The position numbers and the translations under genes were made by a program. The notes beneath the pieces are model-generated. The model saw only the letters and a program-made list of their open reading frames with translations. It did not search any database and was not told where the DNA came from. Positions 5,449-53,330 of a stretch of 64,000 nt of DNA are shown here, in pieces (position 1 is the stretch's first letter; every line of letters begins with the position of its first letter). The stretch is from Syntrophaceae bacterium (lineage in GTDB: Bacteria > Desulfobacterota > Syntrophia > Syntrophales > Smithellaceae), in NCBI GenBank assembly GCA_003139775.1, contig PLGI01000198.1, forward strand, positions 964-64,963. Reading direction: 5' to 3'.

Positions 5449-6175
5449 ACTTTTTCTTGATAAGTTCAGCCTCGGAAGAAATTAGAAATAACGCAAATTT
5501 GGAAGCCGCAGGTTTATTCTTTCCTTTCAGAACACAGGCCGACTGCACCACAGGCGGAGCTTGGGCCACCATGAAGAAACATCCTTTCCTGCCGCCATCC
5601 GTTACCGTTGATGATAGCGCACAGAATCCGGCATCGACGGCCTCGGAAGAGGCGTACTGAAATGTCTGGGCGATATCCTGGGCGATGACCAGCTTGCCTT
5701 GCAGAGCTTCCCATGATTGGGTATCCTTCATGGCCTTCATGGCGGCTGTTCCATAAGGGGCAGTAACCGGATTGGCAAGGGCTATTTTTTTTACAGACTC
5801 TCTTCTTAATGCTTCACGCCAATCGCCGGTCTTGCAAAAATCTTTTTTAGCCGACCACAAAACCACCTTGCCTGTCGCATAAATAAACGGTTTTTCGGCA
5901 AGACCTCCCTGATAAAGACGACTCGGACGATCTTCATCGGCGGACAGGAAAATATCATAAGGCGCCCCGTTGATGATCTGGCTATAAAGATTTCCGGAAG
6001 ATGTGAAGGTTGTCTCTACCTTGATGCCCGTGCTTGCCTCGAATTCCACGACAAGCTCTTTCATCGTCTGGATGTAATTAGCAGCCACCGCCGCGCGAAT
6101 TTTTTCTTCCGCATGAGCAAAGGAAGGCATTATCAATAATAATAAAAGAATATATCGGAAAAAACGGGTTTTCAT
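5435..6175 (-). CDS. modA: Periplasmic molybdate-binding protein
   Basis: Signal peptide MKTRFFRYILLLLLIMPSFAHA, then the ModA pattern TFTSSGNLYSQIINGAPYDIFLSAD. Confidence 0.85.
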   Translation of the reverse strand: MKTRFFRYILLLLLIMPSFAHAEEKIRAAVAANYIQTMKELVVEFEASTGIKVETTFTSSGNLYSQIINGAPYDIFLSADEDRPSRLYQGGLAEKPFIYATGKVVLWSAKKDFCKTGDWREALRRESVKKIALANPVTAPYGTAAMKAMKDTQSWEALQGKLVIAQDIAQTFQYASSEAVDAGFCALSSTVTDGGRKGCFFMVAQAPPVVQSACVLKGKNKPAASKFALFLISSEAELIKKKYGYR

Positions 6176-15589: not shown

Positions 15590-17161
15590 CTATTTCATTT
15601 TCCCCGGGTCGATCCTGAATTTTGCCACCCTGAGGCCCATGATTCTTTCTGTCAATCCCAGGATTCGTGCAGCTTTGGCCATGTTACCGCGGCAGCGTTT
15701 CAATGCATCGCTGATCATCTCCTTTTCCAGAGAGATCAACATGTCCTGCAATGTGCCTTTCGATTCTTGGATGGGGGAGTCATCGCTTTTCTGCAGGTTT
15801 GGCGGCAGGTGATGGGTTTTGATGACGCCGTCTGTACAGAGAATGATGGCCCGTTCGATACAGTTTTCAAGCTCCCGGACATTTCCCGGCCAATGATAGT
15901 GCATGAGCATGTCCGTTGCCGAGACGGAGATGCTCACAATCTTCTTGTCCATCTCCTTGGCGTATTTCTCGATGAAATGATTGGCCAGAAGGATGATATC
16001 CGTCTTTCGCTCCCGCAGGGGCGGAACGACGATGGGGAAGATGTTCAGCCTATAGTAGAGATCTTCCCGAAACTTTCCTTCTCGTATGAGCGCCTCCAGA
16101 TCCCTATTTGTTGCGGCGATAATCCGGATGTTCACTTTTATGCTCATATTGCCACCGAGGCGCTCGAACATCCGTTCCTGAAGGACGCGCAGTAATTTTG
16201 TCTGAACGGCTGGCGGAAGGTCGCCTATTTCGTCAAGAAAGATAGTACCGTTGTTAGCGAGTTCAAAACGTCCCTTGCGAAACTCAGTAGCTCCGGTGAA
16301 AGCGCCCTTTTCATGCCCGAAAAGCTCGCTTTCGATGAGGGACTCCGGCAGGGCCGCGCAGTTGACGATGATGTAAGGACCTCTCGCGTAACTCGAATTG
16401 TAATGGATCGCATGGGCAACGCGTTCCTTGCCGACGCCGCTTTCACCCAAGATCAGAACTGTTGCATTTGTGCGGCAGACCTTTTCGATCATCCCATAAA
16501 TGTTTTGCATAACTTTTGAGGTGCCGATGATGGTTTTGGGGCCGTACTTGATCCTCAGTTCATCTTGCAGCCGACGGTTTTCTTCTTTGATCTTGTCGAG
16601 TTCCTCCTGGGCCAATTGACGCAGACGTACGGCCTGCGAAATTGTGGAGGCAATGATCGTGAGCAGCCGGACATCCTCTTCAAAGTATGTGCCTTCGGTA
16701 ACGAGACGATCAACGGAAATGGTTCCGATAACTTCATTGCCGATTTTTATGGGGACACAGATAAACGCAATGTCCCTTTTATTTAATTTTTTCCTGGAAC
16801 CCGTCCTGTCCAAGAACAATGGATTATCGGAAATACTGGGTACAATGATCGTCTTGCCAGTATTGATCACCTTGCCGGTAATGCCTTCACCCATCCGGTA
16901 TTTTCCTTTGACCTGTTCCTCAGGCAGGAGTCCGTAAGCCTCTTCGATGACAATTTCCCCACTCTCACGGTTCAATATTGTCAGGGCGCCACGGGGCATT
17001 TCCGTGTTTTCGGCCATGCTCTTCAGGACAAACTTCAGGGCTGCCTTAAGATCGAGGCTTTCACTCAGTTTCTTGCTTATCTCAAAAAGTAGGGAAAGCT
17101 CTTTTATTTCACGCGAGACCCTGTCACTTTCATTGCAAGGCGTCATAACGAAATACTCCAT
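15590..17161 (-). CDS. nifA: sigma-54-dependent transcriptional activator, NifA-type (GAF - AAA+ - Fis HTH)
   Basis: 523 aa; GAF-like N-terminus, GESGVGKE Walker A, GAFTGA loop (EKGAFTGA), C-terminal [24 protein letters not shown]. Sits directly upstream of nifH. Confidence 0.85.
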
Positions 17162-19336: not shown

Positions 19337-20569
19337 CTATTCAATCACGGTATAAGCGGCTTCGCTTTGTTGAGTCAAATCCAGGCCGACGAGTTCATTT
19401 TTCTCTTCAACCCTCATGCCGATAAGAGCATCGACAATCTTGAAGATTATGAAGGTCATGATTACAGCAAAGGCGACTGTGGCTAAAAGCGATAAAGATT
19501 GAACCACAAGCTGATGCGCATTGCCGAAAAGAAGACCGTTCGCGCCTGCCGCATTGACGGCTTTTTCCGCAAATAGTCCTGTGGCTATCGTTCCGACAGT
19601 TCCACCAACACCATGCACGCCGAACGCGTCCAGAGAGTCGTCGTAGCCCAGTTTGCCTTTAATGACAGCAACAGCAATATAACAAACAAAAGCAACAATC
19701 ATGCCTATAAACAACGCGTTCATCGGGTTGACAAAACCGCAGGCCGGTGTGATCGCGACAAGTCCGGCCACAGCTCCGGTAACCGTTCCCAGAATAGTTG
19801 GTGTTCCATTGTGCCACCATTCAATGAGCGCCCAGGTTAGTCCCGCTGCGGCTGTTGCCGTATTGGTGGTGACAAAAGCGTTGGCTGCTAAGCCATCGGC
19901 AGCCAACGCGCTACCCGCATTAAAACCAAACCAGCCGAACCACAAGAGTGCTCCACCCAGAACAGCAAACGGCAGATTATGCGGACGAATAGGCCCGTAA
20001 TTTAATCCAACTCTCTTTCCCAGCAACAAAGCCAAAACCAGAGCCGAAACTCCTGAGCTGATATGGACAACCATACCACCGGCAAAATCAAGCGCGCCCA
20101 GATTTTTCAGCCAGCCGCCTGTTCCCCAAACCCAATGCGCCAGAGGATCATAAACAAAAGTCGCCCAGAGAATAGTAAAGAGCAGGAAGGCCGGAAATTT
20201 CACTCTTTCCGCATAAGCGCCGATAATTAAAGCCGGTGTAATAACGGCGAACATCATTTGAAAGGCCATAAAAACACTGTGCGGTATAGTAGCGGCGTAA
20301 TCCTTATTCGGCAAGGAACCTACACCGTTTAGGCCTGCCCAACTCAAATTGCCTATTAGTCCGTGAAAATCGGGGCCGAAGGCCAGAGAGTAACCGAACA
20401 AAACCCACTGCAAACTGATTACGCACAAAATAATAAAGCATTGCATTAAAATAGAAAGAACGTTCTTCCGGCGAACGAGTCCCCCGTAAAAAAATGCCAA
20501 GCCCGGCATGGTCATCAGCAATACCAGCGCCGTGGACATCAAAACCCATGCTGTATCTCCTGAATTCAT
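19337..20569 (-). CDS. amtB: Ammonium transporter
   Basis: Amt/MEP signature sequence (DFAGGMVVHISSG, FGWFGFNAGSA). Start trimmed to MNSGDTAWVL (GAGGAGG RBS) at 20569. Confidence 0.95.
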   Translation of the reverse strand: MNSGDTAWVLMSTALVLLMTMPGLAFFYGGLVRRKNVLSILMQCFIILCVISLQWVLFGYSLAFGPDFHGLIGNLSWAGLNGVGSLPNKDYAATIPHSVFMAFQMMFAVITPALIIGAYAERVKFPAFLLFTILWATFVYDPLAHWVWGTGGWLKNLGALDFAGGMVVHISSGVSALVLALLLGKRVGLNYGPIRPHNLPFAVLGGALLWFGWFGFNAGSALAADGLAANAFVTTNTATAAAGLTWALIEWWHNGTPTILGTVTGAVAGLVAITPACGFVNPMNALFIGMIVAFVCYIAVAVIKGKLGYDDSLDAFGVHGVGGTVGTIATGLFAEKAVNAAGANGLLFGNAHQLVVQSLSLLATVAFAVIMTFIIFKIVDALIGMRVEEKNELVGLDLTQQSEAAYTVIE

Positions 20570-20597
20570 TTTTAATACCTCCTCGAAAATTTTTTTT

Positions 20598-20826
20598 ATG
20601 AGACTCAAATTTAATGAAACTCAGATATTACAAACGCCGTGCAGTAATATCTGCAAGTTGAATTATCCCGCCAAAGGCGGAGAGTAATGAAACCCAAGCT
20701 TCAGAAACGAAGTGCATAACCTAAAGGTCATCTGCGACTGAAGCTTGCAGGTTGAATTATCCTGCATAAGCAAGAGTTGAATAACCCAAAGCTTGCTTTG
20801 GGGTTTCATACCCGTGGCTTTCGACT
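20598..20826 (-). repeat. Family-1 hairpin-linker mosaic repeat, copy A-left (forms the amtB leader)
   Basis: Alternating linker words (GGATAATTCAAC.., GGGTTTCATTAC.., GAGTCTCAT) separated by perfect hairpins, e.g. 20623..20652, 20669..20679, 20696..20746, 20786..20801. Confidence 0.8.
20716..20730 (+). repeat. 15-nt core ATAACCTAAAGGTCA, copy 1 (inside a family-1 hairpin loop)
   Basis: Exact 15-mer. The loop is 21 nt longer than in the paralogous units at 20632..20643 and 21603..21614. Confidence 0.7.
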
Positions 20827-20834
20827 ATACTTAA

Positions 20835-20851
20835 GGCAAGGACAGTGCCAA
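20835..20851 (-). promoter_or_regulatory. sigma-54 promoter of amtB-glnK
   Basis: Minus-strand reading TTGGCACTGTCCTTGCC = TGGCAC-N5-TTGC, a full consensus match. Confidence 0.75.
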
Positions 20852-20932
20852 AATAAAACTTATCGCCGAAATTACCGAAATAACTGATGAATTGATGATA
20901 AACCAAGTTGCGCGATTGGAACAATTTTGTGT

Positions 20933-20970
20933 AAAGATAAGAAATAACCAACCAAAATGTAAAGGAATAC
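20933..20970 (-). promoter_or_regulatory. Degenerate copy of the nifH/permease enhancer-like element
   Basis: TAACC (20945..20949)-N9-GTAAAGGAATAC (20959..20970), same orientation and a similar distance (~90-125 bp) from the sigma-54 promoter. Confidence 0.3.
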
Positions 20971-20995
20971 GCCCTTTATACTCTCTCTTCGGAAA

Positions 20996-21197
20996 AAATC
21001 ACGGGTATGAACCCCAAAGCAAGGTTTGGAAACAAATTTCGCAGCAAGCTGCGGGATTGTTTCCAATAAACCTTTGGTTATTGGATAATTCGACTACCAA
21101 ATTTCATTACGTTGCACTTATGAAATTTGAGTCTCATTACAAATTACCAATTCCGCTGCGCTTCGCTTTAGGAATTGGAGTTTCAACAATAAAAAAA
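20996..21197 (+). repeat. Family-1 mosaic repeat, copy A-right (inverted relative to A-left)
   Basis: AAATCACGGGTATGAACCCCAAAGCAAGGTTTGG ... GGATAATTCGAC ... GAGTCTCATTAC ... CCAATTCCGCTGCGCTTCGCTTTAGGAATTGGAGTTTCAACAATAAAAAAA. Both ends align to copy D. Confidence 0.8.
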
Positions 21198-21300
21198 CTG
21201 CTGAACTCTAACCTGACATGTGGTACAGGCATCGGAGGCAGATCAGATCCATTCGACATGTTTAATTAATTTCTTCAGACGCGAAAAAATAGTTCAACTT

Positions 21301-21480
21301 ATGAAAAAAATATTGAGAATAGGATTTATCGGTACTCTTCACATGACGGTTTACCTGTGGCTGCTGCCTTTCGTAATTCTACCGAAATTCGGAAATACAG
21401 GCACAAAAATCACAGTAACCATATTGATACTGGTTTCCCTGATTGTATTATCCAGTCTGTTTATTAAAAAAAGAAAGTAG
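21301..21480 (+). CDS. Possible small (59 aa) two-TM membrane protein
   Basis: MKKILRIGFIGTLHMTVYLWLLPFVILPKF...ILILVSLIVLSSLFIKKRK; no clear RBS and no recognisable family. Confidence 0.3.
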   Translation: MKKILRIGFIGTLHMTVYLWLLPFVILPKFGNTGTKITVTILILVSLIVLSSLFIKKRK

Positions 21481-21580
21481 AATCAGCGACTGAAAATAAA
21501 ATCAATGTGACAGTAATAATATAGCGCCGTGTTCCATCTGACAGCAGTTGGACAAATTTCCCATATTTTACCCACCGGAC

Positions 21581-21666
21581 TTTAATGAGACCCAAGTTTT
21601 AGAAACGCAGTGCACTGAAACTTGATGGTCGAATTATCCCGATTGCGTAGCGTATCGGGATTGGTC
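21581..21666 (-). repeat. Family-1 mosaic repeat, copy B (one X-hairpin-Y unit plus a short hairpin)
   Basis: TTTAATGAGACCC / AAGTTTTAG-AAACGCAGTGCA-CTGAAACTT / GATGGTCGAATTATCCC / GATTGCGTAGCGTATC / GGGATTGGTC. Confidence 0.75.
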
Positions 21667-21775
21667 TTTATTACCACAAAATACCCGGTAGGAAAAATTT
21701 ATTTATATTTGATTTTATGACACATTTTTCTCTTTTCATTTTTTTGAATTGATATAGGATTGCACAAAATACTCG

Positions 21776-21790
21776 TGACCTTTAGGTTAT
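21776..21790 (-). repeat. 15-nt core ATAACCTAAAGGTCA, copy 2
   Basis: Exact reverse complement TGACCTTTAGGTTAT, flanked by direct AAAATAC...AAAATAC. Confidence 0.7.
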
Positions 21791-21892: not shown

Positions 21893-22087
21893 ATGAGAAC
21901 AACTTTGAATATCGAAGATAACCTGATGGACAAGGCATCCAAAATGACTGGGATCAAGGAAAAAACCGCACTCGTTAAGCTTGGGCTTGAGGCTCTTATT
22001 GCCAGAGAAAGTGGCAAGAGGCTTGCAAGGCTTGGTGGGACTCAAAAGCATTTGCAGGCAATACCAAGAAGAAAAGGAGCATTATAA
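21893..22087 (+). CDS. vapB: Type II antitoxin, VapB/DUF2191-like
   Basis: 64 aa; MRTTLNIEDNLMDKASKMTGIKEKTALVKLGLEALI is typical of antitoxins paired with PIN toxins. 3-nt gap to the PIN gene. Confidence 0.8.
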   Translation: MRTTLNIEDNLMDKASKMTGIKEKTALVKLGLEALIARESGKRLARLGGTQKHLQAIPRRKGAL

Positions 22088-22090
22088 GAA

Positions 22091-22456
22091 ATGGTGCTTG
22101 TGGATACATCGGTTTGGGTTTCACATTTGAGGGATGGAAATGCTGATCTTGCAAACCTGCTCAATAATGGAAGGGTACTATGCCACCCATTAATTGTAGG
22201 CGAACTTGCCTGCGGGAATCTCAAAGACAGAGCAGGCATCCTTTCGTTTTTGCAATTGCTGCCGATGAGCATCGAAGCCGAACATGATGAAGTATTGTCA
22301 TTTATAGAGAATAACCGTTTAATGGGAAAAGGGATGGGCTATGTTGATGTCCATCTTATTACATCCGCTGTATTAACGGGTGTACCTGTCTGGACACTGG
22401 ATAAGAAACTGGCGCAAGCTGCGGATAGCCTGTACATAAAATACATAAAAAAATAG
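22091..22456 (+). CDS. vapC: PIN-domain toxin VapC
   Basis: 121 aa; MVLVDTSVWVSHLR... with conserved acidic residues (DTSV, GEL, DVHL). Confidence 0.85.
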   Translation: MVLVDTSVWVSHLRDGNADLANLLNNGRVLCHPLIVGELACGNLKDRAGILSFLQLLPMSIEAEHDEVLSFIENNRLMGKGMGYVDVHLITSAVLTGVPVWTLDKKLAQAADSLYIKYIKK

Positions 22457-23743: not shown

Positions 23744-23909
23744 ATTTCAATTCCAAATCAAAGATGATATCGAGGCGGCGAGGAGTAGGCACCGGAGGCG
23801 TATAACCTAAAGGTCACACGTATGAAAATACGCTGAGGAAGCCGACGACCCAGGCATGCGCCGGGCAGGCTCCGCCAACAAAGATAGCGCTTTGAGTTGG
23901 GATTGAAAT
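23744..23909 (+). repeat. Family-2 interspersed element, copy C (with terminal inverted repeats)
   Basis: ATTTCAATTCCAAATCAAAG (23744..23763) vs reverse complement of CTTTGAGTTGGGATTGAAAT (23890..23909), 18/20 match. Core GAGGCGGCGAGGAGTAGGC..GGAGGCGTAT..ATACGCTGAGGAAGCCGACGAC..GCCAACAAAG. Confidence 0.75.
23802..23816 (+). repeat. 15-nt core ATAACCTAAAGGTCA, copy 3 (inside a family-2 hairpin loop)
   Basis: Exact 15-mer flanked by direct CGTAT...CGTAT. The family-2 copies at 54583.. and 57794.. lack it. Confidence 0.7.
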
Positions 23910-44588: not shown

Positions 44589-44789
44589 TTTATTGTTGAA
44601 ACTCCAATTCCGAATGCGAAGCATAGCGGAATTGGTAAGTTGAACAATCCCGCGCAGCGGAGGGTAATGAGACTCGCTGACCATAGGAAGCGTTTGTCGA
44701 ATTATACCGCATAAGCAGGTATTTAATACTCCCCAGCTTGCTGCTGAACCTGTTTCCAAAGCTTGCTTTGGGGTTTATACCCGTGATTT
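44589..44789 (-). repeat. Family-1 mosaic repeat, copy D
   Basis: The reverse complement aligns end to end with copy A-right (AAATCACGGGTATAAACCCCAAAGCAAGCTTTGGAAAC ... CCAATTCCGCTATGCTTCGCATTCGGAATTGGAGTTTCAACAATAAA). Confidence 0.8.
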
Positions 44790-46832: not shown

Positions 46833-46937
46833 ATCCTGCGAAGTTGCGGGGTATTAACCCCTCAGCTTCGCAGGATTGTTCAACTTACCAATTACGCTGC
46901 GCTACGCTTTCGGAATTGGAGTTTCAACAATAAAAAA
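46833..46937 (+). repeat. Family-1 mosaic repeat, copy E (3' half of the element)
   Basis: 11-bp stem ATCCTGCGAAG/CTTCGCAGGAT with a nested GGGG-TATTAA-CCCC, then ATTGTTCAAC TTACCAATTACGCTGCGCTACGCTTTCGGAATTGGAGTTTCAACAATAAAAAA. Confidence 0.75.
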
Positions 46938-47061: not shown

Positions 47062-48024
47062 TTGAAAACAAAAGAAATTTATCTCCAAGATATCAAACAG
47101 GGGGACAAGGTAGCTGGCACCTTTTTGGCTGCTGAAAAGAATATGGCCTTTTCTCTGAAAGGCTCTCCTTATCTGAACGTGCGCCTGAAGGATAAGACCG
47201 GCGAGCTCGATGGCAAGGTCTGGGATAACGCGATTGAATTAGATCAACAGTTTAAAAAAGGCGATGTAATCTATATTGAAGGAAAAGCCGCCAGTTATAA
47301 AAATTCAATTCAAATATCTATAATCAAAATTATAAAGAATGAATGGGAAGATGTCGAACCTGCCGACTATTTACCCGCAGCCAAAGGCGACGTTGCCGCC
47401 ATGTTTAATGAAATACTCATCTATGTTGAAAAAATGCAGACTAAACCACTGCAAGAATTGCTGCAATCTTTCTTTCATGATCAAAAAACCGCAGAACTTT
47501 TTCAAAGAGCGCCTGCGGCAAAAGGTTTTCATCATATTTATTTAGGCGGACTTCTGGAACATACACTCTCTGTTGTACGCTTATTGGAAAAAGTATCCGA
47601 ACATTACCCAACCCTCAACAAAGACATGGTTATTACCGGTGGTATACTTCATGATATCGGCAAAATATACGAATTTTCTTATGACCACATAATTGATTAC
47701 AGCGATGAAGGAAGATTAATCGGCCACATTATTATGGGCGTGGAAATGATCGATAAAAAAATTGCCGCTATTGATGGTTTTCCTCCGCAATTAGCACTGG
47801 AATTACGCCATATTATTTTAAGTCATCACGGAGAATTTGAATTCGGTTCTCCTAAACGCCCGAAAACCCTGGAAGCTTTGGTCGTCCATTATATTGATGA
47901 TCTGGATGCCAAGTTTAACGCATTTCAAACATTAATTACTGATTCTACCAATGCCGATTCCGATTGGACAAACTACAACCGCCTTTTGGAGCGTTTTATT
48001 TATAAGGGTAAACCACGGGTATGA
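47062..48024 (+). CDS. OB-fold plus HD-domain nuclease (YhaM-like 3'-5' exoribonuclease)
   Basis: 320 aa, TTG start; OB-fold N-terminus, HD motif (GGLLEHTLSV...LHDIGK). Confidence 0.7.
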   Translation: MKTKEIYLQDIKQGDKVAGTFLAAEKNMAFSLKGSPYLNVRLKDKTGELDGKVWDNAIELDQQFKKGDVIYIEGKAASYKNSIQISIIKIIKNEWEDVEPADYLPAAKGDVAAMFNEILIYVEKMQTKPLQELLQSFFHDQKTAELFQRAPAAKGFHHIYLGGLLEHTLSVVRLLEKVSEHYPTLNKDMVITGGILHDIGKIYEFSYDHIIDYSDEGRLIGHIIMGVEMIDKKIAAIDGFPPQLALELRHIILSHHGEFEFGSPKRPKTLEALVVHYIDDLDAKFNAFQTLITDSTNADSDWTNYNRLLERFIYKGKPRV

Positions 48025-48192
48025 ACTCCACAGCAAGCGGCGGGGTTCATGCTTTCCGCTTCGCGGGATAATTTCCAATAGTTTTTAGCTATTGGATAGT
48101 TCGACTTACAAATTTCATTACGCTACGCTTATAAAATTTGAGTCTCACTACAACTAACGCTTTCTATAGTCAGCGAGTCTCATTAAATTTGA
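48014..48192 (+). repeat. Family-1 mosaic repeat, copy F
   Basis: CACGGGTATGAAC... GGATAGTTCGAC ... CAAATTTCAT-loop-ATAAAATTTG AGTCTCACTAC ... AACGCTTTCTATAGTCAGCGAGTCTCATTAAATTTGA. The first 11 nt overlap the upstream gene's stop codon. Confidence 0.8.
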
Positions 48193-53160: not shown

Positions 53161-53190
53161 CGCTTGTCCTTAAAATCAAAAATATTATTG

Positions 53191-53330
53191 TAATCCCAAA
53201 GCAAGTTTTGGAACCCGATTCCGTTTCAGCGAATTTCAAATCCCACGTCGCTTCACTCCTGGGATAATTCGACTAACGCTTCAAACTTCATCCCGACTCG
53301 TCGGGATTCGTTTTCAGCGAGTCTCATTAA
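53191..53330 (+). repeat. Family-1 mosaic repeat, copy G
   Basis: CCCAAAGCAAGTTTTGG ... CCCA-loop-TGGGATAATTCGAC TAACGCTTC ... TCCCGACTCGTCGGGA TTCGTTTTCAGCGAGTCTCATTAA. Confidence 0.75.

What the first reader, a model, noticed from the sequence alone, without database searches (positions are those of the whole stretch)
20570..20851. amtB has a consensus sigma-54 promoter separated from its start codon by a ~250-nt leader built entirely of repeat modules
Seen:
- TTGGCACTGTCCTTGCC (minus strand, 20835..20851) is a full TGGCAC-N5-TTGC match.
- The amtB ATG with its GAGGAGG RBS is at 20569.
- Everything between (20598..20826) is family-1 repeat copy A-left. It consists of six consecutive hairpins (stems of 3-9 bp, mostly perfect) alternating with linker words GGATAATTCAAC(C/T)TGC and G(G/A)GTTTCATTA(C/A).
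- By contrast, the nifH and permease sigma-54 promoters sit only ~45 nt from their ATGs.

Inference: the repeat is transcribed as the 5' UTR of amtB-glnK. It could act as a regulatory leader (protein sponge or binding array, attenuator, stability element) rather than inert junk.
Basis: partly seen in the sequence, partly recalled or inferred. Interest (0 to 1): 0.65.

Follow-up and report, generated by a model that had tools for sequence, protein, structure and literature searches.

The report
Mobile hairpin repeat inside amtB leader
The long "leader" between the nitrogen-regulated promoter and the ammonium-transporter gene is one copy of a small hairpin-rich repeat that is scattered through the genomes of Smithella-type bacteria and landed just after the transcription start, so it is a tolerated insertion, not a purpose-built regulator.

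Summary
An exact TGGCAC-N5-TTGC site (20836-20850, minus strand) lies 267 nt upstream of the amtB ATG (20569), and about 220 nt of that gap (20598-20817) is a modular hairpin repeat.

In the four closest amtB orthologues (76-89% aa identity) the same promoter, an upstream palindrome, the SD and the ATG are conserved. The promoter sits 59-61 nt from the ATG in three of them and 112 nt in the fourth, and none has a repeat. The repeat is therefore a lineage-specific insertion at about +8 of the transcript.

It belongs to a family found in more than 109 loci of about 30 Smithella/Smithellaceae MAGs. The window holds 11 units at 7 intergenic sites, next to unrelated genes and in both orientations. 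The core is a 57-nt unit: conserved flanks with a 10-bp stem that covaries strongly (92% paired, 290 double changes).

The hairpins are optimised on the strand complementary to amtB mRNA. That strand carries GNA "mini-hairpin" caps and tolerates G·T. This points to a DNA-level, REP/BIME- or MITE-like life cycle.

The element is most likely co-transcribed as a passive structured 5' UTR. It might dampen translation. The family appears undescribed.

The parts
20836..20850 (-). Sigma-54 (-24/-12) promoter TGGCACTGTCCTTGC of amtB-glnK. Predicted +1 is near 20824.
   Evidence: Only exact match in the window. The TGGCAC..TTGC columns are invariant in four orthologous loci. The +1 position is inferred from the canonical spacing (GC at -12).
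20918..20932 (-). Conserved upstream palindrome-like site ACACAAAATTGTTCC. Candidate enhancer-binding-protein site (UAS).
   Evidence: ACA(A/T)(A/T)ATTGT is conserved in the window, L152, L114 and L111 about 70-85 nt upstream of the promoter. A GAF-sigma54-HTH activator is encoded at 15590-17161. Its function as a UAS is inferred.
20818..20826 (-). Ancestral start-of-transcript segment AGTCGAAAG. It is shared with the relative L152, which lacks the repeat.
   Evidence: L152 reads ...TTGCCTTAACAAAAGTCGAAAG|AAAAACTTTTTAAAGGAGGAATTAAAAATG.
20598..20817 (-). Canonical left end CCACGGGTATGAAACCCC (20800-20817) and right end AATTTGAGTCTCATAAA (20595-20611).
   Evidence: Absent from orthologous sites. 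The termini match those of other copies in the window and in other genomes.
20685..20762 (-). Core unit 1 (78 nt). GGATAATTCAAC, a 10-bp stem CAAGCTTCAG/CTGAAGCTTG, then GGGTTTCATTA. Its loop carries a nested 15-nt motif TGACCTTTAGGTTAT (20716-20730).
   Evidence: (partial CM match).
20612..20668 (-). Core unit 2 (57 nt). GGATAATTCAAC, a 10-bp stem CAGATATTAC/GTAATATCTG with loop TGCACGGCGTTT, then GAGTTTCATTA.
   Evidence: CM R1 score 71.9 bits, E = 3.5e-15. Coordinates.
20666..20681 (-). Short G+C hairpin TCCGCCTTTGGCGGGA that joins unit 1 to unit 2 ('hairpin A' type). Its 3' arm supplies the GGA of the next GGATAATTC word.
20760..20813 (-). Head modules: hairpins GGGTATGAAACCC and CCAAAGCAAGCTTTGG, the word-1-like GGGTTATTCAAC, and hairpin TCTTGCTTATGCAGGA.
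   Evidence: The same head is found in copies Aright, C and E and in many loci.
20567..20585 (-). amtB Shine-Dalgarno GAGGAGG and ATG (20569-20567). This is ancestral sequence immediately 3' of the insertion.
   Evidence: Conserved in orthologues. Pfam Ammonium_transp match, E = 2.5e-132.
20996..21196 (+). Second copy of the family (Aright), inverted relative to the leader copy, on the far side of the promoter/UAS segment.
21583..21662 (-). Third copy (B): hairpin A plus one 57-nt unit.
   Evidence: 76 bits.
44589..44789 (-). Full-length copy (C) upstream of a RuvX-family gene.
46859..46937 (+). Copy D.
47996..48185 (+). Copy E.
53189..53329 (+). Copy F.

Best explanation
**What it is.** The roughly 250-nt 'leader' is the short ancestral amtB leader interrupted by one complete, roughly 220-bp copy of a dispersed mosaic hairpin repeat. 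The repeat is non-coding and specific to Smithella/Smithellaceae genomes. In three of the four closest relatives the promoter lies about 60 nt from the ATG, which implies an ancestral 5' UTR of about 35 nt.

**How the family is built.**
- A head module (CACGGGTATGAA...).
- One or more 57-nt units: GGATAATTCRAC, a variable 10-bp stem with a 12-nt loop, then GRGTYTCATTA. The units are joined by short G+C hairpins.
- A tail module (...GAGTYTCA(CAA)TAAA).

**What is shown.**
- The element inserted at about +8 of the sigma-54-dependent amtB-glnK transcript.
- The promoter, the upstream activator site, the SD and the ATG are all intact.

**What is inferred.**
- Transcription from the sigma-54 promoter reads through the element. 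It has no terminator-like hairpin, so the element rides along as a highly structured 5' UTR.
- Any effect on amtB is a by-product of the hairpins. They could protect or process the mRNA 5' end. One thermodynamic prediction has them partly occluding the SD and AUG.
- It is not a nitrogen-specific sensing device.

**How the family probably maintains itself (inferred).** The hairpins are strand-asymmetric. On the strand complementary to amtB mRNA they are capped by C-GNA-G / GCGNAGC mini-hairpins and tolerate G·T wobble. This suggests the family spreads through a single-stranded DNA form of that strand, in the manner of REP/BIME or IS200/IS605-type elements. No transposase was identified.
For: **1. 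It is an insertion.**
- L152 (89% AmtB identity) reads TTGGCACTCTCCTTGCCTTAACAAAAGTCGAAAG|AAAAACTTTTTAAAGGAGGAATTAAAAATG. The window has the same flanks with 220 nt between GTCGAAAG and the A-run.
- The promoter is 59 nt from the ATG in L114 and 61 nt in L111. L134 is 112 nt, also without the repeat.
- CM R1 finds no unit in any of 80 related amtB loci, 409 kb in total.

**2. It belongs to a dispersed family.**
- 104 of the 109 are labelled Smithella, Smithellaceae, Syntrophaceae or Deltaproteobacteria.
- 105 of 130 units are exactly 57 nt.
- The window holds 11 units at 7 intergenic sites.
- 147 of 158 units are intergenic.
- Head-to-tail element lengths are 104-348 bp.

**3. The hairpins are real and under constraint.**
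- 92% of cells are paired, against 67% in shuffles and 15-46% in slid controls.
- There are 290 double-sided changes, and 0 of 500 shuffles reach the observed values.

**4. It is not amtB-specific and not strand-locked to transcription.**
- Between tandem genes, 43 units are sense and 35 antisense. 28 lie between divergent genes and 15 between convergent genes.
- Orthologous copies sit in the leuC-leuD spacer of three genomes.
- Many copies abut the SDs of unrelated genes.

**5. The strands differ.**
- Stem mismatches on the mRNA-sense strand are A·C/C·A 36 against G·T/T·G 5.
- The apex reads C-GNA-G on the opposite strand in 51 of 100 units and in 0 of 100 on the sense strand.
- For the adjoining hairpin the counts are 130 of 157 against 2.
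- d(GCGNAGC) is the extraordinarily stable DNA mini-hairpin (PMC13037366).

**6. Read-through is plausible.** The leader has no terminator-like site, and no sigma-70-like site lies between the element and the SD.

**7. amtB is intact and in use.** The ORF is full length. The identical protein is indexed in 168 blocks of the assembly collection.
Against: - No transcript data were available. The start site and read-through are inferred from sequence alone.
- A weak internal promoter cannot be excluded by a consensus scan.
- There is a modest excess of copies in sense orientation just upstream of gene starts (49 vs 27 within 300 nt). Twelve copies have the SD directly abutting the element's end. 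This could reflect selection for an RNA-level role, not only an insertion preference.
- With the element present, predicted folding lowers the unpaired probability of the SD to 0.28 and of the AUG to 0.01. Without it the values are 0.76 and 0.77 in L152, and 0.48 and 0.62 with the element deleted in silico. A real effect on expression is therefore possible.
- The ssDNA mobility model is weakly supported. No transposase lies near the copies, no autonomous partner was found, and orientation shows no bias relative to GC skew (76:72).
- Only one filled/empty site pair was examined.
Confidence: 0.72

Rival explanations
1. Dedicated regulatory leader. The hairpin array would be a functional amtB-glnK 5' UTR: an attenuator, a stability element, or a protein-binding array or sponge. 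It would tune ammonium-transporter expression.
For: - It lies in the transcribed region downstream of a conserved sigma-54 promoter.
- It folds strongly.
- Its 3' end is predicted to pair with the SD and AUG.
- The family shows a modest sense bias next to gene starts.
- A second locus (L010/L004) has the layout sigma-54-like promoter, then element, then SD.
Against: - Absent from all related amtB loci, including those at 87-89% identity.
- The same element sits beside unrelated genes in both orientations.
- No terminator/antiterminator pair and no Rfam match.
- The hairpin caps and wobble tolerance favour the strand that is not in the amtB mRNA.
- The GGA of the linker word is the 3' foot of the preceding hairpin, not a loop motif as in CsrA/Rsm sponges (read directly from the sequence).
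Confidence: 0.12
2. Promoter displacement. The insertion uncoupled amtB from the sigma-54 promoter, and amtB is now driven by a promoter inside or at the 3' edge of the element, or is poorly expressed.
For: - Many family copies end within 0-20 nt of the SDs of other genes. This would be convenient if the element's tail carried an outward promoter.
- 220 nt of stable hairpins could impede elongation or invite RNase cleavage.
Against: - No sigma-70-like match between the element and the SD. The only minus-strand matches overlap the sigma-54 site or lie upstream of it.
- The tail sequence GAGTCTCATAAAAAAAA has no recognisable -35/-10 pair (read directly from the sequence).
- Copies inside operons such as leuC-leuD are tolerated, which argues that transcription passes through them.
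- The promoter and UAS remain intact and conserved.
Confidence: 0.1
3. Invertible promoter switch. The two inverted copies (20598-20817 and 20996-21196) would act as recombination arms that flip the 170-bp promoter/UAS segment between amtB and the small ORF at 21301.
For: The heads of the two copies face each other across the promoter segment and share about 36 nt at 89% identity.
Against: - No recombinase gene is adjacent. The neighbours are amtB, a 59-aa ORF with no Pfam hit, and vapBC.
- An independent assembly (L110) has the same orientation.
- The promoter/UAS segment is ancestral and collinear with amtB in relatives.
- Inverted neighbouring copies are expected by chance in a family this dense.
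Confidence: 0.03

Closest known systems
REP / BIME elements of Enterobacteria and Pseudomonas (RAYT-associated; PMC2817692, PMC3733652, PMC3116915)
   Same: - Short extragenic hairpins in high copy, clustered into mosaic arrays with conserved linker motifs.
- Sub-families with alternative complementary stem residues.
- Found in transcribed non-coding DNA, including intercistronic spacers.
- G·T tolerated on one strand.
- Thought to act through a single-stranded DNA form.
   Different: - The hairpins are arranged head-to-tail, all with the same strand polarity. Alternating HH/TT arrangement, or REPIN doublets, are not seen.
- The unpaired tag next to the stems is GTCG/GTTG (on the GNA strand), not GTAG or CGTC.
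- The conserved parts are the linkers and the loop, while the stems vary widely.
- No RAYT flanked by these units was found.
BOX elements of Streptococcus pneumoniae (modular boxA-boxB(n)-boxC; PMC3049150)
   Same: - Modular head, variable number of internal modules, and tail.
- 100-350 bp, intergenic and co-transcribed with neighbouring genes.
- Strongly folded, with no transposase of their own.
   Different: - No sequence relationship.
- BOX modules are conserved sequences. They are not covarying stems with conserved flanks.
- A different phylum.
MITEs such as Neisseria Correia elements and enterobacterial ERIC/RU elements (PMC3184786, PMC2229807)
   Same: - Small non-autonomous insertions with defined ends.
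- Presence/absence polymorphism between relatives.
- Often inserted between promoter and gene, and carried in the mRNA.
   Different: - No clear terminal inverted repeats. There is only a 9/12 sub-terminal resemblance.
- No target-site duplication at the one filled/empty pair examined.
IS200/IS605-family ends and other HUH-processed ssDNA hairpins (PMC6006769); d(GCGNAGC) mini-hairpin DNA (PMC13037366)
   Same: - Strand-specific hairpins.
- No target duplication.
- Apical GCGNAGC / C-GNA-G caps, which are known to be exceptionally stable in single-stranded DNA.
   Different: - No TnpA or RAYT is linked to the copies.
- No orientation bias relative to GC skew (76:72).
- The insertion target was not defined beyond an A/T-rich run.
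Long structured 5' UTRs of nitrogen genes (for example the glnA RNA/glutamine riboswitch leaders known from cyanobacteria; my own knowledge)
   Same: A long folded leader in front of a nitrogen-assimilation gene.
   Different: Those leaders are conserved at the orthologous locus and bind a ligand. This one is absent from orthologues and is a genome-wide repeat.

Membership tests
Sigma-54-dependent promoter | GG at -24 and GC at -12 with canonical TGGCAC-N5-TTGC spacing | tested here: met
   Exact match at 20836-20850, the only one in the window.
Sigma-54-dependent promoter | Conserved in position upstream of the orthologous gene | tested here: met
   L152, L114, L111 and L134 all carry TGGCA-N-TTGC upstream of amtB. 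The GG/GC columns are invariant.
Sigma-54-dependent promoter | A bacterial enhancer-binding protein and an upstream activator site | tested here: met
   A GAF-Sigma54_activat-HTH_8 protein is encoded at 15590-17161. The palindrome-like ACACAAAATTGT is conserved about 70-85 nt upstream. Binding itself was not tested.
Sigma-54-dependent promoter | Mapped transcription start dependent on RpoN | not testable with these tools
   No transcript data.
Dedicated cis-regulatory leader (riboswitch / attenuator) of amtB | Conserved at the orthologous locus in related species | tested here: not met
   Absent from 80 related amtB loci, including those at 87-89% identity.
Dedicated cis-regulatory leader (riboswitch / attenuator) of amtB | Intrinsic terminator or alternative terminator/antiterminator fold in the leader | tested here: not met
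   No terminator-like site on the minus strand between 20826 and 20570.
Dedicated cis-regulatory leader (riboswitch / attenuator) of amtB | Match to a curated RNA family | tested here: not met
   Rfam at gathering threshold over the window, and at E<=1 over 20500-21700: no hits.
REP / BIME (RAYT-mobilised) | Short imperfect palindromes, extragenic, high copy | tested here: met
   10-bp stems with a 12-nt loop. 147 of 158 units are intergenic. 11 units per 64 kb. More than 109 loci across about 30 MAGs.
REP / BIME (RAYT-mobilised) | Unpaired GTAG (or CGTC) tetranucleotide at one end of the stem | tested here: inconclusive
   The conserved word next to the stems reads GTCG/GTTG on the GNA strand. 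It sits 3-4 nt from one stem and 4 nt 5' of the next. Degenerate GTMG tags are reported for some REP families (PMC3733652), but canonical GTAG/CGTC is not present.
REP / BIME (RAYT-mobilised) | REPs in alternating orientation within clusters (HH/TT dimers, REPIN doublets) | tested here: not met
   All hairpins of an array carry their GNA cap on the same strand, so they are head-to-tail.
REP / BIME (RAYT-mobilised) | A RAYT (Y1 transposase) gene flanked by the repeats | tested here: inconclusive
   The only Y1_Tnp gene in 877 kb of held sequence (L026) is flanked by unrelated AAAGGGGAC repeats. Whole genomes could not be searched.
MITE | Defined ends, 100-400 bp, presence/absence polymorphism between relatives | tested here: met
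   Head-to-tail lengths are 104-348 bp. The amtB site is filled in the window and empty in relatives.
MITE | Terminal inverted repeats | tested here: inconclusive
   Only a 9/12 resemblance between GTATGAAACCCC (head) and the reverse complement of the tail, TTGTGAAACTCC (read from the sequences).
MITE | Target-site duplication | tested here: not met
   None is visible at the amtB junctions GAAAG| and |AAAAA. Only one site was examined.
IS200/IS605-type ssDNA element | Strand-specific hairpins | tested here: met
   GNA caps 51 vs 0 and 130 vs 2. Wobble asymmetry 36 vs 5.
IS200/IS605-type ssDNA element | Orientation bias relative to replication (lagging-strand template) | tested here: not met
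   76 vs 72 relative to local GC skew, p = 0.8. The proxy is noisy on 8-kb pieces.
IS200/IS605-type ssDNA element | Associated TnpA/HUH gene | tested here: inconclusive
   No gene is recurrent near the copies, and no autonomous-size element was found.

The most novel reading that the evidence does not exclude
The Smithellaceae element may be more than selfish DNA. It could be a previously undescribed class of head-to-tail arrays of GNA-capped hairpins, with conserved single-stranded linkers and freely covarying stems.

On this reading it spreads by a strand-specific mechanism that is neither the RAYT/REPIN scheme nor a TIR-MITE scheme. It would also have been co-opted as a portable 5'-UTR cassette placed directly in front of Shine-Dalgarno sequences.

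In amtB it would then set the translation or stability of the sigma-54 transcript, for example by pairing its 3' word with the SD/AUG region.
Probability: 0.12. Interest if true: 0.6.

Novelty: new member of a known kind. Interest (0 to 1): 0.33.

Why it matters
**For amtB.** The unusual promoter-to-gene distance is explained. The result gives a clean natural comparison for testing what 220 nt of hairpins do to a sigma-54 transcript: the same promoter, SD and gene, with the element in this lineage and without it in relatives.

**For genome annotation.** Smithella and its relatives are key syntrophic alkane and fatty-acid degraders known almost only from MAGs. A dense, structured repeat family affects them in three ways:
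- it breaks assemblies;
- it inflates intergenic regions;
- it can be mistaken for regulatory RNA.

The 57-nt unit and the covariance model built here identify it specifically (11 hits in 64 kb, against 0 in 409 kb of unrelated DNA).

**For repeat biology.** This makes it a useful case for asking whether such elements are selected as ssDNA, as RNA, or both.

Tried and rejected
- **Known RNA families.** Rfam at gathering threshold over the whole window, and at E<=1 over 20500-21700, gave nothing.
- **tRNA/tmRNA and tandem repeats.** Neither was found around the locus. The modules are too divergent for TRF.
- **CRISPR-like reading.** I considered word 2 + G+C hairpin + word 1 as a 37-39-nt 'repeat' with the 34-nt hairpin as a 'spacer'. 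I rejected it because most loci hold single units, the 'spacers' are palindromes shared between loci and genomes, and no cas context was seen.
- **Linked transposase.**
  - All-vs-all clustering of 760 ORFs from 109 loci found only housekeeping families near units.
  - A motif scan found one RAYT, in L026, but it has its own AAAGGGGAC flanks.
  - A search for head and tail termini 0.6-2.5 kb apart found only ordinary genes between separate elements.
- **Orientation.**
  - There is no bias relative to GC skew.
  - Relative to genes there is only a weak bias.
  - A k-mer approach to delimiting whole arrays failed, because orthologous coding k-mers swamped it. Its numbers are not used.
- **Enrichment of sigma-54 sites upstream of units.** 7 hits against about 1.2 expected, but only about 4 are independent. 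This is not convincing.
- **Literature.** Searches for the linker words and for Smithella/Syntrophus repeats found no description of the family. The library is limited to open-access papers.
- **Invertible-switch reading of the inverted pair.** Rejected; see the rival explanations.
- **Not used.** Protein homology, structure prediction and fold searches, because the feature is non-coding.
Full report
**1. The observation**

On the minus strand the window reads TTTTGGCACTGTCCTTGCCTTAAGTATAGTCGAAAGCCACGGG...(repeat)...GAGTCTCATAAAAAAAATTTTCGAGGAGGTATTAAAAATG.
- TGGCAC-N5-TTGC occupies 20850-20836. It is the only exact match in the 64 kb.
- The ORF that starts at 20569 is a full-length ammonium transporter (Pfam Ammonium_transp, E = 2.5e-132).
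- It is followed by a P-II gene, a small HTH_8 protein, a cyclase-domain protein, a GAF-sigma54-HTH activator and nifH.
- As RNA the 267-nt stretch folds at -80.9 kcal/mol, z = -4.7 against dinucleotide shuffles.
- The comparison with nifH also holds: its promoter lies 46 nt from its ATG.

**2. A dispersed family, not a local array**

The same modules recur at six other intergenic sites in the window:

| Copy | Coordinates | Strand |
|---|---|---|
| Aright | 20996-21196 | + |
| B | 21583-21662 | - |
| C | 44589-44789 | - |
| D | 46859-46937 | + |
| E | 47996-48185 | + |
| F | 53189-53329 | + |

- A pattern built from the two linker words (GGATAATTCRAC-N28-58-GRGTYTCATTA) hit more than 109 stretches in the species-representative genome collection.
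- 104 of the 109 are labelled Smithella, Smithellaceae, Syntrophaceae or unclassified Deltaproteobacteria, from about 30 MAGs. The other five carry other labels and may be binning errors.
- The exact AmtB protein is encoded on contigs in 168 blocks of the assembly collection. The one contig shown has the same leader.

**3. Anatomy of the family**

- 105 of 130 units are exactly 57 nt.
- The unit is: GGATAATTCRAC; 3-4 nt; a 10-bp stem; a 12-nt loop (consensus TGCACTTCGTTT) that contains two further pairs; the second stem arm; then (G)RGTYTCATTA.
- On 100 distinct units this structure is 92% paired. Shuffled partners give 67% and slid controls give 15-46%.
- Nine of the ten stem pairs, and both loop pairs, show changes on both sides: 290 cells in all, reached by 0 of 500 shuffles.
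- Immediately 5' of each unit is a second hairpin whose 3' arm supplies the GGA(T) of the linker word.
- Complete elements start with (A)ATCACGGGTATGAACCCC plus two or three short hairpins, and end with ...GGAGTTTCACAATAAA. Head-to-tail lengths are 104-348 bp.
- The amtB copy has both canonical ends: CCACGGGTATGAAACCCC at 20800-20817 and AATTTGAGTCTCATAAA at 20595-20611. It is therefore one complete element.
- A covariance model of the unit (R1) finds 11 units in the window and none in 409 kb of unrelated amtB loci.

**4. The amtB copy is an insertion**

- A metagenome scan with AmtB returned orthologous loci.
- In L152 (89% aa identity) the region reads TTGGCACTCTCCTTGCCTTAACAAAAGTCGAAAG-AAAAACTTTTTAAAGGAGGAATTAAAAATG, so the promoter is 60 nt from the ATG.
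- The distance is 59 nt in L114 (87%), 61 nt in L111 (76%) and 112 nt in L134 (79%). None carries a repeat.
- In the alignment, the -24/-12 elements, an upstream ACA(A/T)(A/T)ATTGT palindrome-like site, the SD and the first codons are conserved. About 220 nt are present only in the window, between GTCGAAAG (ends at 20818) and the A-run that begins at 20597.
- With GC at -12, the start is predicted near 20824, so the element lies at about +8.
- No target-site duplication is apparent.

**5.

- The promoter is real and the repeat lies downstream of the predicted start.
- The leader has no terminator-like hairpin, and no sigma-70-like site lies between the element and the SD. The one sigma-70-like match, TTGGCA-16-TATAGT, overlaps the sigma-54 site, and its -10 is not conserved in L152.
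- Co-transcription as the 5' UTR is therefore the default reading.
- A dedicated regulatory role is not supported, for three reasons:
  - the block is missing in the closest relatives;
  - the family lies next to unrelated housekeeping genes;
  - three genomes keep an orthologous copy in the leuC-leuD intercistronic spacer directly before the leuD SD. This shows that transcription and translation of flanking genes tolerate the element.

**6. Orientation**

- Relative to flanking ORFs the counts are: 43 sense and 35 antisense between tandem genes, 28 between divergent genes, 15 between convergent genes, and 11 of 158 inside ORFs.
- A gene start with an SD lies within 300 nt of the unit's 3' side in 49 cases and of its 5' side in 27. 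In twelve cases the SD directly abuts ...CATTA. This modest sense bias is inflated by orthologous sites, and by the unit usually lying at the tail of an element.
- There is no bias relative to local GC skew (76:72).

**7. Strand asymmetry**

The asymmetry is intrinsic to the element.
- On the strand that is sense to amtB, stem mismatches are A·C/C·A 36 against G·T/T·G 5. They are scattered over many positions and sub-families. The complementary strand is therefore the one that keeps wobble-paired hairpins.
- On that complementary strand the apex reads C-GNA-G in 51 of 100 units, and GCGNAGC or ACGNAGT in 43. The sense strand has none.
- The adjoining hairpin shows the same pattern: 130 of 157 against 2.
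- d(GCGNAGC) is the 'mini-hairpin' DNA motif. It has two G-C pairs and a sheared G·A pair, a Tm of about 76 °C, and is markedly more stable as DNA than the corresponding RNA (PMC13037366).
- Together with the weak orientation bias towards transcription, this favours a single-stranded-DNA stage of one strand as the selected form. REP/RAYT and IS200/IS605 systems work in this way (PMC2817692, PMC6006769).
- G·T pairing has also been read as a sign of RNA function in REPs (PMC3733652), so an RNA role for copies transcribed in the other orientation is not excluded.
- No transposase was linked to the family.

**8. Possible effect on amtB**

- In a thermodynamic model of the transcript from +1 to +40 of the CDS, the SD is unpaired with probability 0.28 and the AUG with 0.01. 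This is because the last unit's 3' arm and word (UCUGAGUUUCAUU...UCUC) pair with AAUGAAUUCAGG and GAGG.
- In L152 the values are 0.76 and 0.77. With the element deleted in silico they are 0.48 and 0.62.
- This is a prediction only. Co-transcriptional folding of the strong local hairpins would compete with that pairing.

**9. Comparison with known systems**

- The family works like REP/BIME, BOX or MITE-type intergenic repeats.
- It fails or leaves open several membership criteria:
  - the hairpins are head-to-tail, not alternating;
  - the tag is GTCG/GTTG, not GTAG/CGTC;
  - there are no clear TIRs and no target-site duplication;
  - no associated RAYT was found.
- I found no description of it in Rfam or in the searchable literature.
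- I therefore class it as a new member of a known kind, the small structured non-autonomous intergenic repeats.

**10. Verdict**

- The 'regulatory leader' reading is only partly supported.
- The leader is an incidental, tolerated insertion of a lineage-wide repeat at about +8 of a conserved sigma-54 transcript.
- Interest is modest for amtB biology. It is somewhat higher for the repeat family itself.

Noticed in passing
window 20716-20730 (-), 21776-21790 (+), 23802-23816 (-); 64 occurrences in loci L001-L109: A 15-nt imperfect palindrome, TGACCTTTAGGTTAT, occurs as a nested ~20-nt insertion in the apical loops of the longer (68-79 nt) units. When nested it always has the same orientation relative to the unit (13 vs 0). 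It also occurs alone in intergenic DNA. It may be a second mini-repeat or a protein-binding site that targets the loops.
   Followed up: partly
window 20996-21196 (+) versus 20598-20817 (-): Two family copies lie head-to-head on either side of the ancestral amtB promoter/UAS segment (20827-20995). I considered an invertible switch, but there is no recombinase nearby and an independent assembly has the same orientation.
   Followed up: partly
window 20918-20932 (-): The palindrome-like ACACAAAATTGTTCC is conserved 70-85 nt upstream of the sigma-54 promoter in four amtB orthologues. It is a candidate binding site for the NifA/NtrC-type activator encoded at 15590-17161.
   Followed up: partly
L010 about 5925-6000 (reverse strand of the locus); orthologous sites in L004 and L082: A sigma-54-like site (TGGCACGGTCTTTTC in L010, TGGCACGATAATTTC in L004) lies 44-51 nt upstream of a family unit. 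That unit directly abuts the SD (CATTA|GGAGGTAACAGATCATG) of a conserved 91-aa membrane-protein gene. This is a second locus with the layout promoter, then element, then SD.
   Followed up: partly
L059, L096, L106 (and L072): leuC-leuD spacer: Orthologous family units are retained in the leuC-leuD intercistronic spacer of several species, ending 0-3 nt before the leuD SD. One has the nested TGACCTTTAGGTCA insert. The stems show both compensatory and disruptive changes.
   Followed up: partly
L026 1152-1775: A RAYT-type Y1 transposase gene (Pfam Y1_Tnp, E = 8e-13) in Smithella sp. SCADC is flanked by inverted ATAAAGGGGACAGAT repeats. These are a different repeat system from the one studied here.
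   Followed up: partly
window 20824-20851 (-): A sigma-70-like match (TTGGCA-16-TATAGT, 10 of 12) overlaps the sigma-54 site. Its -10 hexamer is not conserved in L152, so it is probably fortuitous.
   Followed up: partly
window 21893-22456 (+): A vapB-vapC (VapB_antitoxin + PIN) toxin-antitoxin pair lies just beyond the repeats. A 59-aa hydrophobic ORF at 21301-21480 has no Pfam match.
   Followed up: no
L021, L050, L063, L073, L095: Five of the 109 pattern-hit contigs are labelled Mariniphaga, Candidatus Buchananbacteria, Bacteroidales, Victivallales and 'archaeon'. These are short contigs in MAGs. Mis-binned Smithellaceae DNA is more likely than true occurrence of the family in those taxa.
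   Followed up: no
window 20559-20625 (-): The 3' word of the last unit (CUGAGUUUCAUU...UCUC) is partly complementary to the amtB SD/AUG region (GAGG...AAUGAAUUCAGG). In silico this lowers the accessibility of the start codon from about 0.6-0.8 to 0.01.
   Followed up: partly
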